Shown here one piece after another: positions 23,941 through 30,770 of a stretch of 64,000 bases of DNA; position 1 is the stretch's first letter, and each line of letters begins with the position of its first letter. The DNA is from Candidatus Gastranaerophilaceae bacterium (lineage in GTDB: Bacteria > Cyanobacteriota > Vampirovibrionia > Gastranaerophilales > Gastranaerophilaceae). The DNA is taken from positions 36,204 to 100,203 of the forward strand of contig JAZTWQ010000004.1 in assembly GCA_045635965.1 (NCBI GenBank). The letters are read 5' to 3'. The translations under genes and the position numbers were made by a program. A model generated the notes under the pieces. It worked only from the letters and a program-made list of their open reading frames with translations, had not been told where the DNA came from and did not search any database.

Positions 23941-24726
23941 TCAATCTTTCTCACATGCCAACAATAAAATCGATTTTGGTCTGTTTTCATTACCAACAAG
24001 AGGCATTTCTGACAAATATGGCAAATTATACTGGTTTCCAGTTGGTTTACATATAGTATCACCCTCATCACGATTTGGACAAGTTAAAACAGAATATAAT
24101 TTGGAACGAGTTCTCGATAAAGTTTCAGTTCTATTCATCCCATCACTGGTATACAAAAACCATTGATCATACGCAGCCTCTGTATATCCACCACCAGATA
24201 TAATATGAGTAGAACTAGTCTTCGCTGGGTAAGTGCCATCACCAACAGCGCCTACATCAGCGTTATAAGGAGCATAAGGTCCATAACGATGAGTATTAGA
24301 CATTGCATTAGAACTATGAGTAACAAAAGGTGAAACATGCTTATGCTTATGAACCATAGTTTCTAAAGTGTCGCCGATATTTTTATCGTCTACAATAACA
24401 CCAAGGTCGTTCACCTGTGCAATTCGCAGATAGTGCCCACCCATATTCTTAATTACAGACCACCCCTCAGGACAACTCGTACGCCTAAAAAACATAACAG
24501 CGCCAGACTCTACAGAGTCCCGTTCTTCTTGTGGTTGTTCTCGTATTTGCTCACGAAGTTGATCGATTTGTCGTTGCAATATTTGCATTTGAGTATTAGT
24601 CAAAGTTTCGTTTCTCAACTGACGAGAAATCATAGGAGCCGACATCCCAAGTGCAATTGTAGCTATCAACAACACAACCATCGCTTCGACCAAGGAAAAT
24701 GCATTTTCCTGCTTTAATTCTATCAT
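23941..24726 (-). CDS. pilin-like protein, subfamily A (prepilin-type signal plus tail-collar-like domain)
   Basis: NA|FSLVEAMVVLLIATIALGMSAPMI. Also GAVMFF..CPEGW, MVHKHKH, and ends NENRPKSILLLACEKD. Confidence 0.7.
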   Translation of the reverse strand: MIELKQENAFSLVEAMVVLLIATIALGMSAPMISRQLRNETLTNTQMQILQRQIDQLREQIREQPQEERDSVESGAVMFFRRTSCPEGWSVIKNMGGHYLRIAQVNDLGVIVDDKNIGDTLETMVHKHKHVSPFVTHSSNAMSNTHRYGPYAPYNADVGAVGDGTYPAKTSSTHIISGGGYTEAAYDQWFLYTSDGMNRTETLSRTRSKLYSVLTCPNRDEGDTICKPTGNQYNLPYLSEMPLVGNENRPKSILLLACEKD

Positions 24727-24914
24727 TTTAAATCCCTTCTATATTAATTTTAATGGTATAAATAATTTTCTTTCATTAACTTTGCTTGGATGGGTTTCAC
24801 CAAACCTGCGTTGTCCGTTCTTTCTATCTGCTTGGTAAAACCAACCCACATTTTTTAGTCCTTGCGGTGCGTCAAAACGACGCCCCCTACGGCTCTTAGC
24901 CCCACAATAACTAA

Positions 24915-24945
24915 GCGTCATGCCGAAATAAATTCGGCATGACGC
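24915..24945 (-). other. perfect 13-bp hairpin inside the leader ORF
   Basis: GCGTCATGCCGAA-ATAAA-TTCGGCATGACGC. Confidence 0.8.
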
Positions 24946-25040
24946 ATGATTTTTTGCTTTATCACTAGATTTTATTTTTAATTTTTCACCACGAACACTT
25001 ATTTTTTGCCCCGCAGAAGAATTTATCGGGCCGTCAATTG

Positions 25041-25046
25041 CCCCCC
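25041..25046 (-). repeat. coding-strand poly-G tract, 6 nt
   Basis: C6 on the plus strand, in the same leader context as the longer tracts. Confidence 0.9.
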
Positions 25047-25118
25047 TACAACCATGTGGGTTTTAGCCGTTTTGTTTCCCATAAAATTCTTCCTACCTTC
25101 TGGCGACCAATATAGAGA

Positions 25119-25421
25119 TTACAACTTGCTAGGCATATCTAGTCTTGGGTCAATTATACCTGTCCCAAATCTACCGCTTTCAGCCAATGGATCCATATAT
25201 TGAACAAATCTTTTAATAAGATTTGTTTCTCTTTTTGGCTCAACGTATGGTGAATAAGGGTCATATCTTTTAATATTTACCATACGAATAGCTTCAGGCG
25301 AATAACCGGCGTTTCTTAAATAGTCTTCGCTTAAAAGCCTATCCGTGTCAATAGCTGCTAATGCAGGCAATACCCCACACGCTAATGCTAAAAGAATTGT
25401 TGAAATTATTAGTTTTTTCAT
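25119..25421 (-). CDS. small secreted hypothetical protein
   Basis: MKKLIISTILLALACGVLPALAA signal peptide. The internal ATG is preferred as the start. Confidence 0.5.
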   Translation of the reverse strand: MKKLIISTILLALACGVLPALAAIDTDRLLSEDYLRNAGYSPEAIRMVNIKRYDPYSPYVEPKRETNLIKRFVQYMDPLAESGRFGTGIIDPRLDMPSKL

Positions 25422-25496
25422 ACTTTCTACCCATTTAATTAAATGTACATTCATCTATTATACATTATAATATATTTTTTAAAAAAATAAAACCAA

Positions 25497-26555
25497 CTAT
25501 TTTGCGTATTCTTTTACAATTTTTTCAAATTCATCCAATAATTCGCATTCTGGAACTTTTTTAATTATTTCACCTTTTTTGAATATGTAGCCTTCACCAA
25601 TTGCACCAGCTATTCCAAAATCTGCATGTTTTGCTTCCCCCGGACCATTTACAGGGCACCCCATAACAGCTAGTGTCAGTGGCTTGTCGTAATTTTTAAA
25701 TCTTTCTTCAACTTTTTTGGCTAGAGAGATTAAATCAATTTGAGTTCTTCCACAAGTTGGGCAAGATATAAAATTAATTCCTTTTTGTCTCAATTCAAGT
25801 GATTTTAAAATTTCAAAACCAGCATAAACTTCTTCTATTGGGTTTTCGGTTAGCGAAACTCTTATTGTGTCACCAATTCCTTGCGAAAGTATTGCGCCAA
25901 TTCCTGCACCTGATTTTATTAAACCCGCTTTTAAAGTCCCCGCTTCAGTTACGCCAACATGGAGAGGATATTCGATTTTTTTTGATATCAAATTATATGC
26001 CTCAATCGTTGTCAAGACAGAGCTGGATTTTAGAGAAACTTTTATTAGGTCAAAATCATTGTCTTCTAATATTTTTATGTGTCTTAATGCACTTTCGACC
26101 ATTTTTTCAGCTAAAGACATTTCATTGTTTTGTTCCAAGTCTTTTTGTAGAGAACCGGCATTTATTCCTATTCTTATCGGCGACTTATTTGTTTTTGCAA
26201 GAGCAACAACTTTTTTTACGTTTTCAGCATTGCCAATGTTTCCGGGGTTAAGTCGAAGAGCATCAATTCCGTTCTCTATACATTGTATTGCTAATCTGTA
26301 ATCAAAATGTATATCAGCAATCAAGGGAATTGGAGATTGTTTTTTTATTTCTTTTATTGCGCTTGCAGCATCTTTATTTAAAACAGCAAGCCTTATTAAT
26401 TCGCAACCTGCGTCAGCAAGCTCGTTAATTTGAAATAGTGTCGCTTTTACATCTCGAGTATCAGTATTGCACATCGACTGTACACTGATTGGCGAATCCG
26501 AACCTATTTTAATATTTCCTATTTGAAGTTGTTTTGTTTTTCTTCTTTTTATCAT
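25497..26555 (-). CDS. ispG: 4-hydroxy-3-methylbut-2-en-1-yl diphosphate synthase
   Basis: IGSDSPISVQSM, GINAGS, SCPTCGR...GCPVNGPGE cluster motifs. Confidence 0.92.
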   Translation of the reverse strand: MIKRRKTKQLQIGNIKIGSDSPISVQSMCNTDTRDVKATLFQINELADAGCELIRLAVLNKDAASAIKEIKKQSPIPLIADIHFDYRLAIQCIENGIDALRLNPGNIGNAENVKKVVALAKTNKSPIRIGINAGSLQKDLEQNNEMSLAEKMVESALRHIKILEDNDFDLIKVSLKSSSVLTTIEAYNLISKKIEYPLHVGVTEAGTLKAGLIKSGAGIGAILSQGIGDTIRVSLTENPIEEVYAGFEILKSLELRQKGINFISCPTCGRTQIDLISLAKKVEERFKNYDKPLTLAVMGCPVNGPGEAKHADFGIAGAIGEGYIFKKGEIIKKVPECELLDEFEKIVKEYAK

Positions 26556-26593
26556 AATATTTATATAACACAAAAATGATAAGTAAATAAAAT

Positions 26594-27358
26594 ATGGAGA
26601 AAATTATGAAAATAGCTGTAATTTCTGATATTCATGGCAATATGCAAGCTTTAGAGGCTGTTTTAGACAGTATTAATAAAGAAGATTGTGAAAAAATATT
26701 TTGCTTAGGCGATTTAGCTATGGCTGGTCCTCAACCAAACGAGACTATTAATAAAATTAAAGAATTGATAAATATTGGGAATTTCGAATTAATCCAAGGA
26801 AACACTGATGAATATTTATCAAAAAATAGTGATGAAATGTATAACGTTATAAACAAGGCTAACCCTATAATGGCGGCAGCTTATAATGCTGATAGAGAAG
26901 TTATAAGTAATGAAAATTTGGAATTTTTAAAAAGCTTACCAGCTCAAAAAACTATTGAACTAAATGGGGTAAAAATATTATTAACTCATGGCTCTCCTCG
27001 CGCCAACAATGAAAATATTTTTCCAGAATTACCAATTGAAAAAATTGAAGAAATGTTAATTGGAGTTGATGCTGATTTGATTTTTTGCGGTCATACTCAT
27101 CAACCTTGTGGATACCAAACAAATACAAAACAAACCGTTGTAAACGTTGGAAGTGTTGGACGCCCTTTAAATGAGCACCCAAGAGCTTGTTATTTATTAT
27201 TAGAAATAGTTGAGAATACTGGTGAATTTTATGTAGAGCATAAATTAATCAGATATGACAAAGAAAAAGCTGCAGAATTATTAAAGCAACGAAACTTTGA
27301 AGGTGCTGAAAAATTAGCAAGCATGCTACTAAGCGCGTCAGAAAGATATCCTGCTTAG
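26594..27358 (+). CDS. metallophosphoesterase family protein (YfcE/MJ0936-like)
   Basis: ISDIHGN, GDLAMAGP, GNTD, THGSP, CGHTH motifs. Confidence 0.8.
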   Translation: MEKIMKIAVISDIHGNMQALEAVLDSINKEDCEKIFCLGDLAMAGPQPNETINKIKELINIGNFELIQGNTDEYLSKNSDEMYNVINKANPIMAAAYNADREVISNENLEFLKSLPAQKTIELNGVKILLTHGSPRANNENIFPELPIEKIEEMLIGVDADLIFCGHTHQPCGYQTNTKQTVVNVGSVGRPLNEHPRACYLLLEIVENTGEFYVEHKLIRYDKEKAAELLKQRNFEGAEKLASMLLSASERYPA

Positions 27359-27468
27359 TTATAGAATGAAGTTTGATAAAATATAATGTTTTAATTAATC
27401 ATATTTCTATATGATGCATTGTTACGTGATTTTTACTAGTGTAGTTTTATGGTTAGATAGGAGATTTT

Positions 27469-28017
27469 ATGTTAGAAAATTTAAGCTTACAACAAACATT
27501 CTATTGGATTAGTCTTGTTTCAACCGTTTTGTTTATTTTAAAAATGGTTATATTTTTGTTGTTTGGCGGAGATTCTGAAGTTGAAGTGGATTTTGACTCT
27601 TATGCGGATGCAGATCCATCTTTCAGTTTCTTTTCAGTTCAATCAATATTAGCCTTTTTTATGGGACTAGGCTGGATGGGACTATTGCTCATTAAGCAAG
27701 CAACAATTAATCCATTAATGACATTTTTGATTGCTTTTGGTAGCGGTGTTTTATTTATGCTAGCAACTGCATATTTGATGTTTTGTATTAAAAAATTGAA
27801 TCAAAATGTGAAAGTTGATTTAAATGATTATGTTGGAACTGAAGGTAAAGCTTATACTTCAATCAATCCAAATGCAGAAGGTCAAATTGAAATTGTTATT
27901 AATAAAAAGTTGGTAATTATGCCCGCTATTAATATAACTGAAGAAAAAATTGAGGCATTTACGCCAATTAAAATTGAAAAAGTAGAAAATAATAAATTAT
28001 ACATAGTAAAAATTTAG
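27469..28017 (+). CDS. YqiJ/NfeD-like membrane protein
   Basis: TM helices, an acidic GGDSEVEVDFD segment and a C-terminal OB-like part. Sits immediately upstream of the flotillin gene. Confidence 0.6.
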   Translation: MLENLSLQQTFYWISLVSTVLFILKMVIFLLFGGDSEVEVDFDSYADADPSFSFFSVQSILAFFMGLGWMGLLLIKQATINPLMTFLIAFGSGVLFMLATAYLMFCIKKLNQNVKVDLNDYVGTEGKAYTSINPNAEGQIEIVINKKLVIMPAINITEEKIEAFTPIKIEKVENNKLYIVKI

Positions 28018-28029
28018 AAAGGAGAAAAA

Positions 28030-29466
28030 ATGTATTTAGATCCAGCATCTATGTTTTTTGTGGTTATTCCAGCGCTTATATTAATATCCGCACTACTGTT
28101 TATTGCGAACCAATATAAACGTTGCCCATCAAACAAAATTATCGTTGTTTATGGTAAAACAGGTTCAAACACAACTGCTAAGTGTGTTCACGGCGGTGGT
28201 GTTTTTGTTATTCCACTTATTCAGGATTACGGAGTTTTGTCTTTAGAACCTTTGGCAACTGATATTGATTTAAGAGGCGCTTTGTCAAAAGGTAATATCC
28301 GTGTTGCCGTACCTTCAACTTTTACTTTTGGTATTTCTACAAAAACAGATATTATGATAAATGCAGCTGAGCGTTTGCTTGGATTAAGCAAGCAAGACAT
28401 TATTGCACAAGCAAGCGATATTATTTTAGGTCAATTACGTCTTGCTATTGCAACATTGACAATCGAAGAAATCAACCAAGATAGAGAAAAATTCTTGGAA
28501 CAAATCAACATCAACGTAAATACAGAGTTGAACAAAATTGGTTTAGAAATCATCAACGTAAACATTAAAGATATTACGGATGAATCCGGATATATCGATG
28601 CTATTGGTAAAAAGATGGCGGCAGAAGCTATTAACAAAGCTAAAGTAGAAGTTGCTCAACAAGAAAAACTTGGTGCAGTTGGTGAAGCTGAAGCTAATAA
28701 AACGAAAGAAGTTCAAGTTGCAGAACAAGTTGCTCAAACAGAAATTGGTAAAACTAATGCGCAAAAAGAGCAACGTATTAAAACAGCAAGCCTAGAAGCA
28801 GAAGCGGTTGAAGGTGAAAACATTGCTAAAGCAAATATTGCAGATTATAATGCTACTTTAGCTGTGAAACAAGCAGAAGCTTTAAAACTTGGTGAAGTTG
28901 CAAAAGCAAATGCAGAACGTGATGTTTTGATGGCTCAAAAAGAACAAGAAGAAGCAAGATTGAAAAAAGAAGAACTTGCAAGACAAGAAGTTGAAAAATT
29001 AAAAATTCAGGTTGAAGCTGATGCAGAGGCTGAAAGACAACGTAGAATTGCACTTGGTGAAGCTGATGCGATTAAAGCTAAATACTTTGCAGAAGCTGAA
29101 GGTATCAAAGCCGTTCTTGAAGCTAAAGCTAAAGGGTATGAAGAACTTGTTAAAATCAGCAATAACAAACCTGAAATTGCTACAAGTTTCTTGATGATTG
29201 AAAAAATCGAGGATATTGTTGCAAAACAAGTTGAGGCAATTAAAAATATTAAATTTGATAAGATTACTGTTTGGGATGGTGGCGCAGGCTCAAAAGATGG
29301 CAGCACAACAGCTAATTTTATGAGAGACTTGATTAAAGCTCTTCCAGCAATGCATGATTTAGCTGGTCAAGCTGGTATTGAATTACCTCAAATTCTTGGT
29401 AAAGTTGCATCTCAAGATGAACTTCAACCCCTAACAAACGCAACAAGCGAAGAAAACCAAAATTAA
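28030..29466 (+). CDS. flotillin/SPFH (band 7) family protein, YqiK-like
   Basis: N-terminal TM, SPFH core, long Ala/Glu/Lys coiled-coil repeats. Confidence 0.8.
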   Translation: MYLDPASMFFVVIPALILISALLFIANQYKRCPSNKIIVVYGKTGSNTTAKCVHGGGVFVIPLIQDYGVLSLEPLATDIDLRGALSKGNIRVAVPSTFTFGISTKTDIMINAAERLLGLSKQDIIAQASDIILGQLRLAIATLTIEEINQDREKFLEQININVNTELNKIGLEIINVNIKDITDESGYIDAIGKKMAAEAINKAKVEVAQQEKLGAVGEAEANKTKEVQVAEQVAQTEIGKTNAQKEQRIKTASLEAEAVEGENIAKANIADYNATLAVKQAEALKLGEVAKANAERDVLMAQKEQEEARLKKEELARQEVEKLKIQVEADAEAERQRRIALGEADAIKAKYFAEAEGIKAVLEAKAKGYEELVKISNNKPEIATSFLMIEKIEDIVAKQVEAIKNIKFDKITVWDGGAGSKDGSTTANFMRDLIKALPAMHDLAGQAGIELPQILGKVASQDELQPLTNATSEENQN

Positions 29467-29516
29467 AAATCTTACAAAAGATTAATTTAAATTAACATTA
29501 TAAATTTTAAACAAAT

Positions 29517-29560
29517 CCCAAAGCTACACCAAATACAAAGTTAGTTTTGGGGTTATTTTA
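29517..29560 (+). terminator. putative terminator after the flotillin gene
   Basis: CCCAAAGCTA / TAGTTTTGGG stem (one mismatch) followed by GTTATTTTAT. Confidence 0.4.
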
Positions 29561-29681
29561 TGCAATAATTTCTTGCACTGATAAGTTTTGTATAGTAATA
29601 TTAACAATAATTTTGCTTATTTTTAAAATTAGTTATAAAATTAAAGTAAATTAGACTTATAAATTTAAAGAGGATGTTAAT

Positions 29682-30770
29682 ATGAAATCTTACACACAAG
29701 AACAAATTACGGAAATTGTTGGTGGTATTCTTACTAAAGTTACAACAACTACTATTAACAGAATTTCCCCACCACTTTTAGCTAACGAAAACACTTTGGC
29801 TTTAGCTCTTGGCGAAGAAGAAATCGAAAACCTTTCAAAATCACAAGCACAGGTTGCATTGGTTCCTCTTGGTGTAAATTTAGACAATATATCAACAATA
29901 GAAGTTGAAAGACCAAAACTTGCAATGATGAAACTACTTCATCTTTTCTACATTCCACCGGAAACACAATCCGGTATTCATCCTACGGCTGTTGTTCATC
30001 CCGAAGCGGAAATTGCTGAAAATGTTTCAATAGGCGCAAATGTTGTGATTTCAAGAGGTGCTAAAGTTGCAAGTGGCACAAAATTATTACCAAATTGCTA
30101 TATCGGCAGAAATGTAAAAATTGGAGAAAATTGTTTCTTCCATGCTGGATGTCATATTGGAGACGATGTTCAAATTGGAAATAGAGTAATACTTCAACAA
30201 GGTTGCTCAATTGGTGCTGATGGCTTTAGCTTTGTTACAGAAAATCCTGACAATATCGAAAAAGCAAAACAAGCAGGCGAAATTAAAGAAGCGAATACAA
30301 AACAAAAAATATATAAAATTCCTTCTATTGGTTCTGTGGTAATTGAAGACGACGTTGAAATCGGTGCAAATTCTGCAATCGACAGAGGTACAATCGAAAA
30401 CACAGTAATTGGCGCATCAACTAAAATTGATAACCTTGTTCAAATTGGTCATAACTGCAAAATTGGTAAAGCTTGTATGATAGTATCCCAAGTTGGTATT
30501 GCAGGAAGTTGTGTAATTGGAGATAGAGTTGTTATAGCAGGACAAGCAGGACTTGCAGACCACTTAAATATTGGCGCAGATAGCATAATTATGGCTCAAG
30601 CTGGAGTTTCAAAAAGTTTTCCAGAACGTTCTATCATTATCGGCGCGCCAGCTGTTCCTAGAAAAGATTTCATTAAACAAATGAAAATGATGAAATCTGC
30701 AGAAGAATTAGTTGCTAAGTTCAAAAAATACGAACATTTACTAAAAGCGCTAGAAACAGACGAAGAATAG
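29682..30770 (+). CDS. lpxD: UDP-3-O-acylglucosamine N-acyltransferase
   Basis: [13 protein letters not shown] plus long left-handed beta-helix hexapeptide repeats. 362 aa. Confidence 0.9.

What the first reader, a model, noticed from the sequence alone, without database searches (positions are those of the whole stretch)
24739..25082. Leader module detached from a pilin body: a G6-interrupted upstream ORF ending 12 nt before a subfamily-A pilin-like gene
From the ATG at 25082 the reading is MGNKTAKTHMVV, then G6, then QLTAR-TAA. With G7 the frame reads MGNKTAKTHMVVGGGAIDGPINSSAGQKISVRGEKLKIKSSDKAKNHASCRIYFGMTLSYCGAKSRRGRRFDAPQGL...PLKLI*. That is 114 aa, joining listed ORF 24739..24921, and it stops 12 nt before the ATG of the 23941-24726 gene. 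That gene has its own RBS (GAAGGGA). So at this locus the switch would act through an upstream ORF (coupling or polarity) rather than through the pilin reading frame. The RRFDAPQGL segment also precedes the 47-kb subfamily-A gene directly downstream of a subfamily-B gene. This suggests the locus arose from a B-A tandem by loss of the B body.
Basis: partly seen in the sequence, partly recalled or inferred. Interest (0 to 1): 0.6.

Follow-up and report, generated by a model that had tools for sequence, protein, structure and literature searches.

The report
Hairpin-laden switch leader before pilin gene
A short on/off "switch" gene-start that this gut bacterium normally fuses to its pilus-protein genes here lies about 340 bases upstream of its gene, separated from it by small palindromic repeat elements; it can act on that gene only indirectly and looks like a worn, nearly locked copy, which makes it an instructive but fairly ordinary variant.

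Summary

The 392-nt spacer is a mosaic of repeats found throughout this Gastranaerophilaceae genome:
- one of about 50 poly-G prepilin leader modules;
- a collapsed CGTC-tagged REP palindrome, terminator-like (translated "HASCRIYFGMT");
- a GTAG-tagged REP (translated "RRFDAPQGL");
- a decayed second leader/5'UTR;
- the conserved proximal SD/ATG module of subfamily-A genes.

The G7 frame is non-randomly open: 1 stop against 14 and 11 in the other two frames (shuffle P=0.004). In three paralogs the same modules run in frame into the pilin. However, indel phases mark the sequence upstream of the proximal ATG as untranslated.

This copy has a short OFF tract and no family promoter. Related strains join the upstream gene to this pilin through only 72-120 bases.

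Best reading (0.45): a quasi-locked leader uORF plus REP hairpin, ahead of a pilin gene translated from its own start. Coupling or polarity is plausible but untested. Origin by loss of a B body is not supported.

The scan has already reported REPs inside pilin leaders in other genomes.

The parts
25119..25454 (-). 111-aa secreted-looking protein gene, the last gene of the ispG unit. Its stop lies 36 nt before the leader ATG.
   Evidence: ORF list. Orthologues follow ispG in relatives. No Pfam family.
25083..25118 (-). 36-nt spacer with the leader's SD (AGGAAG). The family promoter (TTGCTA-N17-TATAAT) seen upstream of many other leaders is absent.
   Evidence: Upstream regions of 49 leaders compared. 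No promoter-like site between 25454 and 25082 on the minus strand.
25023..25082 (-). Leader ORF as sequenced (G6): 19 codons plus TAA. One member of the roughly 50-copy poly-G prepilin leader family.
25041..25046 (-). G6 tract. G7, G10 and so on open the long frame. Paralogous tracts run from G5 to G13.
24739..25082 (-). The 114-codon frame that opens with one extra G. It ends at TAG 24741-24739.
   Evidence: Stop-codon asymmetry and shuffles.
24915..24945 (.). CGTC-tagged REP, a doubly tagged 13-bp palindrome that looks like a collapsed head-to-head dimer. It is terminator-like on both strands and reads HASCRIYFGMT in the G7 frame.
   Evidence: Scan. Fold -24.8 kcal/mol, z -6.4. 32 perfect-stem units in the genome. 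Expanded dimers in paralogs. Family features from PMC3733652.
24866..24890 (-). GTAG-tagged REP: GTAG, an imperfect stem of up to 8 bp (5 perfect pairs here) and a 5-nt loop. It reads RRFDAPQGL in the G7 frame.
   Evidence: Copies in related genomes G005, G008 and G010.
24795..24862 (-). S6: a hairpin-forming relic of a second leader unit (its 5'UTR plus a degenerate leader start, with no ATG and no G tract).
   Evidence: Compared by eye with leader-upstream regions and with paralog C45:87202, where it is plain 5'UTR behind the family promoter. Fold.
24727..24800 (-). S7: the conserved proximal-start module of subfamily-A genes. It holds the in-frame TAG (24741-24739) and SD GAAGGGA (24739-24733).
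   Evidence: 85-93% identical in 10 paralogs. TAG variant shared by at least 4 other paralogs with the same 12-nt gap, with AAG or CAG in the rest. Indels are not multiples of 3.
23941..24726 (-). Subfamily-A pilin-like gene, 261 aa, with a short class-III-type leader MIELKQEN followed by AFSLVEAM.
   Evidence: ORF. Pfam N_methyl PF07963, 21.3 bits against a cut-off of 21.2. One of 79 pilin-like N-termini in the genome.

Best explanation
What it is (shown). The stretch is the 5' region of a subfamily-A pilin-like gene in a Gastranaerophilaceae genome. It has been assembled by recombination from repeat modules of that genome. In order:
- a poly-G prepilin leader module (here G6, out of frame);
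- a collapsed CGTC-tagged REP palindrome;
- a GTAG-tagged REP;
- a decayed second leader/5'UTR;
- the conserved proximal SD/ATG module.

How it works (inferred).
- The pilin is translated from its own SD and ATG at 24726.
- The family promoter is missing, so transcription must arrive from the ispG/111-aa unit upstream.
- In the sequenced G6 state, ribosomes that start at 25082 stop after 19 codons. The 13-bp REP hairpin 78 nt further on is then free to fold. It most likely ends or stabilises the upstream transcript, so the pilin gene receives only read-through.
- A +1 slip to G7 would carry ribosomes across the hairpin to a TAG that overlaps the pilin SD. That would favour read-through and re-initiation.
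- A 6-G run slips rarely, so this copy is best seen as a worn, quasi-locked OFF version of a gate. The gate may still operate at paralogous loci with G9-G11 tracts.
For: - Repeat nature: 57 matches of the 392-nt spacer in the 2.0-Mb genome, with modules mapped.
- The REPs fit the published CGTC and GTAG definitions: tag, 8-bp stem with a 4-5-nt loop, head-to-head dimers, and non-pilin copies extragenic and mostly downstream of genes.
- The hairpin is terminator-like, at -24.8 kcal/mol with z -6.4.
- The proximal SD/ATG module is conserved in all long subfamily-A loci. In paralog C45:87202 it serves with S6 as plain 5'UTR directly behind the family promoter, with no poly-G leader.
- Indels upstream of the proximal ATG are not multiples of 3. 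Internal indels downstream of it all are.
- There is no family promoter before this leader.
- G6 is at the short end of G5-G13.
- Related strains at about 90% identity join the 111-aa gene to this pilin CDS through only 72 or 120 other bases, too few for the leader-REP block.
- For the gate architecture: the G7 frame is open for 99 codons past the tract (P about 0.005). All 7 unfused long loci keep ON-frame ORFs of 70-213 codons, and three fused loci have no stop in 394-520 nt.
Against: - There are no expression, transcript-end or read-level data for this organism.
- The persistently open G7 frame could mean that the uORF is still under selection here, that is, a working switch. Or it could be inherited from translated paralogs without present function.
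- The paralog C45:87202 shows that S6+S7 can stay open for 70 codons without any start codon.
- The REP's U-tail is interrupted (UUAGUUAUU), and other copies of the family lack a U-run, so terminator efficiency is unknown.
- Weak promoter-like hexamers lie within S7. They could make the pilin independent of everything upstream.
- The letters between the joints in the related-strain contigs could not be read.
Confidence: 0.45

Rival explanations
1. Pure relic. The leader, the REPs and the 114-codon frame are leftovers of recombination among paralogous 5' regions and have no effect. The pilin gene is expressed constitutively with the ispG/111-aa unit, or from a weak promoter in S7, and is translated from its own SD/ATG whatever the tract length.
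For: - Related strains have the pilin 72-120 bases after the 111-aa gene with no room for the block.
- S6+S7 act as plain 5'UTR in C45:87202.
- The phase of indels marks the region upstream of the ATG as non-coding.
- Codon-position variability is flat in modules upstream of the ATG.
- The tract is short (G6), Arg is replaced by His in the leader, and there is no family promoter.
- The long-leader peptide is not found in other proteins or in other species of the genus.
Against: - The G7 frame has 1 stop where about 7 are expected.
- Every unfused paralog also keeps an unexpectedly long ON-frame ORF.
- Most of those paralogs keep long, uninterrupted G9-G11 tracts in a 32% GC genome. That is hard to explain for functionless DNA.
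- A 13-bp hairpin with a U-rich tail between the upstream gene and the pilin gene should affect read-through.
Confidence: 0.3
2. Active uORF switch, which is the functional part of the first reader's reading. G6/G7 slippage occurs at a useful rate in the population and toggles pilin expression, through translational coupling at the TAG/SD/ATG junction and through relief of termination or polarity at the REP hairpin.
For: - The stop lies 12 nt before the ATG and overlaps the SD.
- The hairpin lies inside the ON frame and downstream of both OFF-frame stops.
- The same layout recurs at C4:101633 and C29:16767 (23-nt gap) and at 18.6-19.1 kb (65-nt gap).
- The frame is non-randomly open.
Against: - A 6-G run is at the short end of the family's G5-G13 range. 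From general knowledge, that is below the length at which homopolymer slippage becomes frequent.
- No length heterogeneity could be observed, because no served run holds the strain.
- The in-frame TAG is a shared family variant rather than a feature shaped at this locus.
- Local folding does not sequester the pilin SD (z about 0), so coupling is not enforced by structure.
Confidence: 0.15
3. One long prepilin. The leader, the REP-encoded segments and the pilin are a single gene, as in paralogs C45:10536, C22:788 and C45:75327. It is made when the tract is G7 and the TAG is read through or reverted, so this locus is a gene broken twice.
For: - The three fused paralogs have 0 stops in 394-520 nt between tract and pilin motif, against 12-23 in the other frames, and are in frame in the assembly.
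- The target's TAG sits where they have AAG.
- The G7 frame and the pilin frame coincide.
Against: - TAG is an ordinary stop codon here: 100 of 507 frames of at least 400 codons end in it.
- The TAG variant is shared by at least 4 other paralogs.
- Indels upstream of the proximal ATG ignore the reading frame.
- All long loci keep the proximal SD/ATG.
Confidence: 0.05
4. Origin from a subfamily-B/subfamily-A tandem by deletion of the B body. This is the evolutionary part of the first reader's reading.
For: A B-A tandem exists at 47-48 kb, and an RRFDAPxGL segment precedes both A bodies.
Against: - RRFDAPQGL is a dispersed GTAG REP.
- Its position relative to the proximal-start module differs at the two loci.
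- Only the first 83 nt of the leader align between the two regions.
- Better matches to every module lie at other loci.
- Related strains show a short 111-aa/pilin junction.
Confidence: 0.05

Closest known systems
Poly-G translational phase variation in a leader or signal-peptide coding region (Neisseria pilC; contingency loci of Neisseria, Haemophilus, Campylobacter). From general knowledge, and as named by earlier agents of this scan.
   Same: A homopolymeric G run lies a few codons after the start codon of a cleaved leader. Two of the three frames stop at once. There are many dispersed paralogs with differing run lengths (G5-G13).
   Different: At this locus the run sits in an upstream ORF, not in the structural gene, which has its own SD/ATG. 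The run is only 6 G. The lineage is Gastranaerophilaceae.
CGTC-tagged and GTAG-tagged REPs (Di Nocera, De Gregorio and Rocco 2013, PMC3733652)
   Same: The features match: terminal CGTC or GTAG tag, 8-bp stem with a 4-5-nt loop (CGTC type), imperfect 5-8-bp stem with a 4-5-nt loop (GTAG type), tens of dispersed copies, head-to-head dimers. Copies outside pilin loci are extragenic and mostly downstream of genes.
   Different: More than half of the perfect CGTC units lie within 900 nt upstream of pilin bodies. No Y1/RAYT transposase is found in the genome. Many units lie inside open frames.
Rickettsia palindromic elements and other intragenic REPs (as summarised in PMC3733652)
   Same: Palindromic repeats sit in frame inside ORFs and add 10-30 residues without breaking them. 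This holds here for the REP-bearing leaders downstream of the proximal ATG (indels all multiples of 3) and for the three fused paralogs.
   Different: At the target the REPs lie in an upstream ORF that is not joined to the protein. The invaded segment is a leader that is normally cleaved off.
Leader-peptide attenuation in which a translating ribosome prevents a terminator hairpin (pyrBI type), and termination-reinitiation coupling in operons. From general knowledge.
   Same: A leader ORF overlaps a terminator-like hairpin, and its stop lies next to the next gene's SD/ATG.
   Different: The input would be a heritable frameshift in a G run rather than a metabolite or charged tRNA. Nothing has been shown experimentally.
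Earlier reports of this scan on palindromic repeats inside pilin leaders in other genomes (e1-1061785, e1-1584508, e1-1313043, e1-1173560)
   Same: Small REP-type palindromes sit in the part of a pilin gene that encodes the cleaved leader.
   Different: Here they are combined with a poly-G switch and, at this locus, lie in a detached upstream ORF. I did not check those reports.

Membership tests
Simple-sequence (poly-G) phase-variable contingency locus | Homopolymeric tract inside the 5' coding part of an ORF, so that length changes shift the frame | tested here: met
   G6 at 25046-25041, 12 codons after the ATG. The three frames give 19, 114 and 16 aa.
Simple-sequence (poly-G) phase-variable contingency locus | Tract long enough to be hypermutable (roughly 7-8 or more; general knowledge) | tested here: not met
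   Only 6 G. Most paralogs carry G9-G13.
Simple-sequence (poly-G) phase-variable contingency locus | Observed length variation within a population or between strains at the same locus | not testable with these tools
   No served run holds the strain: at most 9% of sampled words. No contigs with the same proteins or pattern. Only paralogs vary (G5-G13).
Simple-sequence (poly-G) phase-variable contingency locus | The frame change switches a functional product | tested here: inconclusive
   The shifted ORF is a uORF made of repeat modules. Any effect on the pilin would be indirect.
CGTC-tagged REP (PMC3733652) | CGTC tag at the end of a short stem-loop, with a stem of 8-9 bp and a loop of 4-5 nt | tested here: met
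   The unit is CGTC, an 8-bp stem (ATGCCGAA/TTCGGCAT) and a 5-nt loop. The tag is present on both sides, giving 13 pairs.
CGTC-tagged REP (PMC3733652) | Dispersed multicopy family, with head-to-head dimers, mainly extragenic and downstream of genes | tested here: met
   32 perfect-stem units (19 CCG-type and 13 CTG-type). Dimers at C31:149531-149686, C5:63806-63971 and C29:16496-16641. The 9 non-pilin sites examined are all extragenic, and 6 of them lie downstream of a gene or between convergent genes. In addition, 12 of the 21 tagged units lie upstream of pilin bodies.
GTAG-tagged REP (PMC3733652) | GTAG tag followed by a stem of 5-13 bp and a loop of 2-20 nt, in many copies | tested here: met
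   At the target: GTAG, an imperfect stem of up to 8 bp (5 perfect pairs) and a 5-nt loop. About 35 copies of the core in the genome, plus copies in G005, G008 and G010.
GTAG-tagged REP (PMC3733652) | Association with a RAYT (Y1) transposase | tested here: not met
   PF01797 finds nothing in the 99.6%-complete genome, while the search's control genomes respond.
Type IV prepilin-like protein (class III signal peptide) | N-terminal methylation motif with Glu at +5, followed by a hydrophobic helix | tested here: met
   PF07963 at 21.3 bits against a cut-off of 21.2, E 1.9e-4. The motif is AFSLVEAMVVLL. Ala replaces the usual Gly at -1. Cleavage was not tested.
Leader-peptide attenuator or translationally coupled uORF | Leader ORF overlapping a terminator hairpin, with its stop adjacent to the next SD/ATG | tested here: met
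   The hairpin at 24945-24915 lies inside the G7 frame and 78 nt after the G6 stop. The TAG overlaps the SD, 12 nt before the ATG.
Leader-peptide attenuator or translationally coupled uORF | Downstream expression depends on leader translation | not testable with these tools
   This needs reporters or transcript mapping. The local fold does not sequester the SD.
In-frame palindromic insertion (RPE-like) | The repeat lies inside a protein ORF and keeps the frame | tested here: not met
   At the target the REPs lie in a detached uORF. The feature is met in paralogs C45:10536, C22:788 and C45:75327, and in the REP-bearing leaders after the proximal ATG (indels in multiples of 3).

The most novel reading that the evidence does not exclude
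A phase-variable attenuator. In this pilin family a slippery G run sits in an upstream ORF that runs across REP hairpins to the pilin's ribosome-binding site. Slippage would then switch the pilin through ribosome-dependent relief of termination plus re-initiation, not through the pilin's own reading frame. REP elements would have been co-opted as the terminator part. This would operate at the seven unfused long loci and, weakly, at this one.
Probability: 0.3. Interest if true: 0.65.

Novelty: new variant of a known kind. Interest (0 to 1): 0.38.

Why it matters
This locus shows how a large contingency-gene family in an uncultured gut lineage, a non-photosynthetic relative of cyanobacteria, is remodelled. 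Small palindromic repeats (REPs) pile up in the dispensable, cleaved-off leader region of prepilin genes. Recombination shuffles leader, REP and start modules between about 79 paralogs. The products range from in-frame giant leaders to detached upstream ORFs.

If the detached form still gates the pilin gene, it would be an example of simple-sequence phase variation acting through an upstream ORF and a REP terminator. It would also give REPs a concrete regulatory role.

If not, the locus is a useful warning: a long open frame in repeat-built DNA need not be a gene.

Tried and rejected
- Structured RNA or riboswitch. Rfam at gathering threshold on the whole window, and at E-value threshold on 24600-25250 and on six paralogous loci, gave nothing credible. 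The best hit was CyaR at 22.6 bits against a threshold of 47, which is only the hairpin.
- RAYT/IS200 mobilisation of the REPs. PF01797 is not found in the genome.
- Group II intron or invertible promoter, as readings of the nested inverted repeats. There was no Rfam hit and I did not look for a recombinase. The nested forms are explained as head-to-head REP dimers and their collapsed products.
- TAG read as a sense codon. Rejected, because TAG ends 100 of 507 long frames.
- Other alleles of the locus. Exact-protein look-ups for the pilin and the 111-aa protein, one metagenome pattern scan, one metagenome scan and one genome scan with the 111-aa protein found no second copy of this locus. The genome scan found only L056's genome.
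- Long-leader protein in other organisms. Only the query itself was found among 5.8 billion proteins. In the genus, matches almost all cover only the pilin N-terminus.
- Read-level tract length. The served runs are animal-gut contigs of relatives at about 90% identity. They gave locus structure but no heterogeneity.
- Codon-position test for coding constraint in the leader extension. Weak or flat: 0.28, 0.22 and 0.30.
Only the leader start aligns.

Full report
OBSERVATION. On the minus strand the ATG at 25082 opens MGNKTAKTHMVV. A run of six G follows at 25046-25041. The frame as sequenced reads on as QLTAR and stops at TAA 25025-25023. One more G opens a 114-codon frame that ends at TAG 24741-24739. 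Two more G give a 16-codon frame. The TAG is 12 nt before, and in frame with, the ATG at 24726 of the 261-aa pilin-like gene 23941-24726. GAAGGGA overlaps the TAG.

CONTEXT.
- The window comes from a 2.0-Mb, 32% GC genome. Its closest named relatives are Candidatus Gastranaerophilaceae MAGs.
- The genome holds 79 pilin-like N-termini.
- It holds 55 G or C runs of 8 or more bases.
- It holds about 50 copies of one leader module: SD, ATG, about 12 codons ending in KT(A/V)KTR-like residues, then a G run of 5-13. After the run, two frames stop at once and one reads (A)IGSP.NSP.GQKISV....
- In many genes this leader runs straight into the pilin body. Examples are C38:368 and C36:5565, and the 48-kb copy in this window.
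- Earlier agents of this scan have already described this switch family in this genome. I did not repeat their work.

ANATOMY OF THE 392-nt SPACER. The spacer 24727-25118 gives 57 matches in its own genome. It breaks into modules.
1. The leader with G6, continuing through GQKISVRGEKLKIK. In short-leader genes this segment directly precedes the pilin.
2. A 13-bp perfect palindrome at 24945-24915.
   - Its core is CGTC, an 8-bp stem, a 5-nt loop, the stem again, then GACG.
   - The genome has 32 perfect-stem units of this kind.
   - Typical copies carry CGTC on one side and CTATCC on the other. They occur as head-to-head pairs 100-150 nt apart.
   - The target, C45:10646, C22:658 and C31:27784 carry the tag on both sides. 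That is the product expected when such a pair collapses through its 8-nt direct repeat.
3. GTAG followed by an imperfect stem of up to 8 bp and a 5-nt loop, at 24890-24866. Its translation is RRFDAPQGL. About 35 copies of its core are in the genome, with further copies in related genomes G005, G008 and G010.
4. S6 (24862-24795). This resembles the 5'UTR hairpin and first codons of a leader unit, but has no ATG and no G run.
5. S7 (24800-24727). This is 85-93% identical to the sequence just before the start of ten other subfamily-A genes.

The two hairpin types fit the CGTC-tagged and GTAG-tagged REP super-families of Di Nocera et al. (PMC3733652).
- The paper gives, for the CGTC type, stems of 8-9 bp, loops of 4-5 nt and predominant head-to-head dimers.
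- It also notes a location mostly downstream of genes, that intragenic copies are known, and that the CGTC type has no dedicated transposase.
- The nine CGTC sites outside pilin 5' regions that I examined are all extragenic. Six of them lie downstream of a gene or between convergent genes.
- No Y1/RAYT transposase is present.
- 12 of 21 tagged perfect CGTC units lie within 900 nt upstream of a pilin body. Such regions are only a few percent of the genome.

IS THE 114-CODON FRAME REAL?
- Between the tract and the pilin motif (338 nt), the frame shared with the pilin has 1 stop. The other two frames have 14 and 11.
- Dinucleotide shuffles expect 7.3 stops, giving P=0.004.
- Thirteen loci have more than 100 nt between tract and pilin.
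  - In six the ON frame runs uninterrupted into the pilin. Three of these are the long C45:10941, C22:368 and C45:75858, with 0 stops in 394-520 nt against 12-23 in the other frames.
  - In three, including the target, it ends 12-23 nt before the proximal ATG.
  - In four it ends 62-284 nt before that ATG.
- In all seven unfused loci the ON-frame ORF beyond the shared leader is longer than composition predicts. P runs from 0.063 to below 0.0004.

The frame is therefore not a chance ORF. Three caveats apply.
- The loci share modules, so they are not independent.
- In paralog C45:87202, S6+S7 lie directly behind a clear promoter (TTGCTA, 17 nt, TATAAT) with no leader start. Yet they are open for 70 codons. 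Openness can therefore be inherited without translation.
- Indels among paralogs upstream of the proximal ATG have lengths 1, 2, 2, 6, 6, 2 and 14. In the REP-bearing leader downstream of the proximal ATG every internal indel is 3, 9 or 15. Codon-position variability upstream is flat.

Translation from the proximal ATG, REPs included, thus carries a coding signature. The stretch upstream of it does not.

THE TAG AND THE PROXIMAL START.
- The in-frame TAG is not a private mutation. At least four other paralogs share a variant of S7 with TAG five codons before the ATG (C31:45845, C15:30600, C29:2445 and the C15:35719 locus). C4:54564 carries a related TAG at a different spacing.
- The fused loci carry AAG at that position. 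C29:16767 and C45:87202 carry CAG.
- TAG is a normal stop codon here.
- All long subfamily-A loci, fused or not, keep the SD-ATG of S7 almost invariant.

PROMOTER. At least a dozen leaders have the family promoter 55-95 nt upstream of their ATG. The target leader starts 36 nt after the stop of the 111-aa gene. No promoter-like site lies between 25454 and 25082 on its strand. Promoter-like hexamers within S7 are weak and no more frequent than in shuffles. Transcription therefore most likely arrives from the ispG/111-aa unit.

HISTORY OF THE LOCUS.
- In the closest named relative (ispG 90% identical) and in two same-genus genomes, the 111-aa gene is followed by a terminator hairpin and lpxD. There is no pilin there.
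- Here lpxD (96% identical to that of G005) lies 4.5 kb away on the other strand. A rearrangement breakpoint therefore sits just after the 111-aa gene.
- Contigs of animal-gut runs from organisms about 90% identical join the last base of the 111-aa gene's stop codon (25119) to the pilin coding sequence. One joins at 24706 through 72 other bases. Another joins at 24660 through 120 other bases. That leaves no room for a 340-nt leader-REP block.
- The block is therefore specific to this lineage, either gained here or lost there.
- The proposed origin by loss of a B body finds no support.
  - The shared RRFDAPxGL is a dispersed REP.
  - At 47 kb it lies after the proximal-start module. Here it lies before that module.
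  - Only the first 83 nt of the leader align between the two regions.

MECHANISM (INFERRED).
- The REP palindrome folds at -24.8 kcal/mol (z -6.4). It has a U-rich tail and scores as terminator-like on both strands.
- It is the first such structure after the 111-aa gene. The whole leader RNA is unusually structured (z -3.8).
- With G6, leader translation stops 78 nt before the hairpin, which can then fold.
- With G7, ribosomes would cross the hairpin and terminate on the pilin's SD.

This is the layout of a ribosome-dependent attenuator plus termination-reinitiation. I rate the readings as follows.
- 0.45: this layout exists but is quasi-locked OFF here, because the tract is short, the promoter is missing and the leader is worn.
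- 0.30: the block is a pure relic with no effect.
- 0.15: it is an active switch.
- 0.05: it is a twice-broken single long prepilin.

The B-A origin (0.05) is a separate historical question, not a fifth member of this set.

At family level, G9-G11 tracts are retained in front of unfused uORFs. That makes some gating role more likely, at about even odds.

COMPARISON AND NOVELTY. Each component is of a known kind: poly-G contingency leader, tagged REPs, intragenic REPs, leader-ORF attenuation. The scan has already reported palindromic repeats inside pilin leaders in other genomes and the poly-G family in this one. What is added here:
- the identification of the "leader-to-pilin" filler as CGTC and GTAG REPs;
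- the spectrum from fused giant leaders to detached uORFs;
- the evidence that this particular copy is a worn one.

I class it as a new variant of a known kind, of moderate interest.

Noticed in passing
G000 C5:126465, C31:45206, C2:73454, C38:368, C22:788; in the window upstream of the leader at about 19.1 kb: A conserved family promoter lies 55-95 nt upstream of many leader ATGs: TTGCTA, 17 nt, then TATAAT within the motif AAATTTAGTATAAT. It is absent before the target leader and before the 48-kb leader.
   Followed up: partly
G000 C23, about 57900-58350 (upstream of the pilin motif at 58351): One leader carries a composite dinucleotide repeat, (AG)n followed by (GT)n with interruptions, in place of the G run. 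It is followed by a CGTC-type REP and the TAG variant of the proximal start.
   Followed up: no
window 25119-30770: In three relatives the order is ispG, 111-aa gene, lpxD on one strand. Here lpxD (29682-30770, + strand, 96% identical to G005's) is separated and inverted relative to ispG/111-aa. The pilin locus sits at the breakpoint.
   Followed up: partly
G000 C29:16496-16641; C31:149531-149686; C5:63806-63971: These are head-to-head CGTC REP dimers. In C29 the two units are 117 nt apart, a multiple of 3, inside the leader ORF. Doubly tagged single palindromes (target, C45:10646, C22:658, C31:27784) look like their collapsed products. REP expansion or collapse could change leader length without breaking the frame.
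   Followed up: partly
G000 contig ends: C1:67-171, C38:329, C22:633, C36:127, C39:400, C7:251, C17:32, C35:1-34: Many contigs end inside leader or REP repeats. The assembly is broken at these elements, so copy numbers given here are lower bounds.
   Followed up: no
L007 (G000 C31, about 10140 down to 9800, minus strand): A GC-rich, helix-rich block of about 300 nt follows the left arm of a CGTC REP inside a leader ORF. Part of it recurs inverted at the 18.6-19.1 kb locus of the window. There is no Rfam match.
   Followed up: partly
G000 C45:87000-87202: A subfamily-A gene has the family promoter, S6 and S7, but no poly-G leader. Its 5'UTR is open in the pilin frame for 70 codons without any start codon.
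   Followed up: partly
G000 C31:227677 and C31:27500-27560: These leaders have G runs broken by other bases (for example GAGGGGTGGGGAG). They are probably decayed or locked switches comparable to the G6 copy.
   Followed up: no
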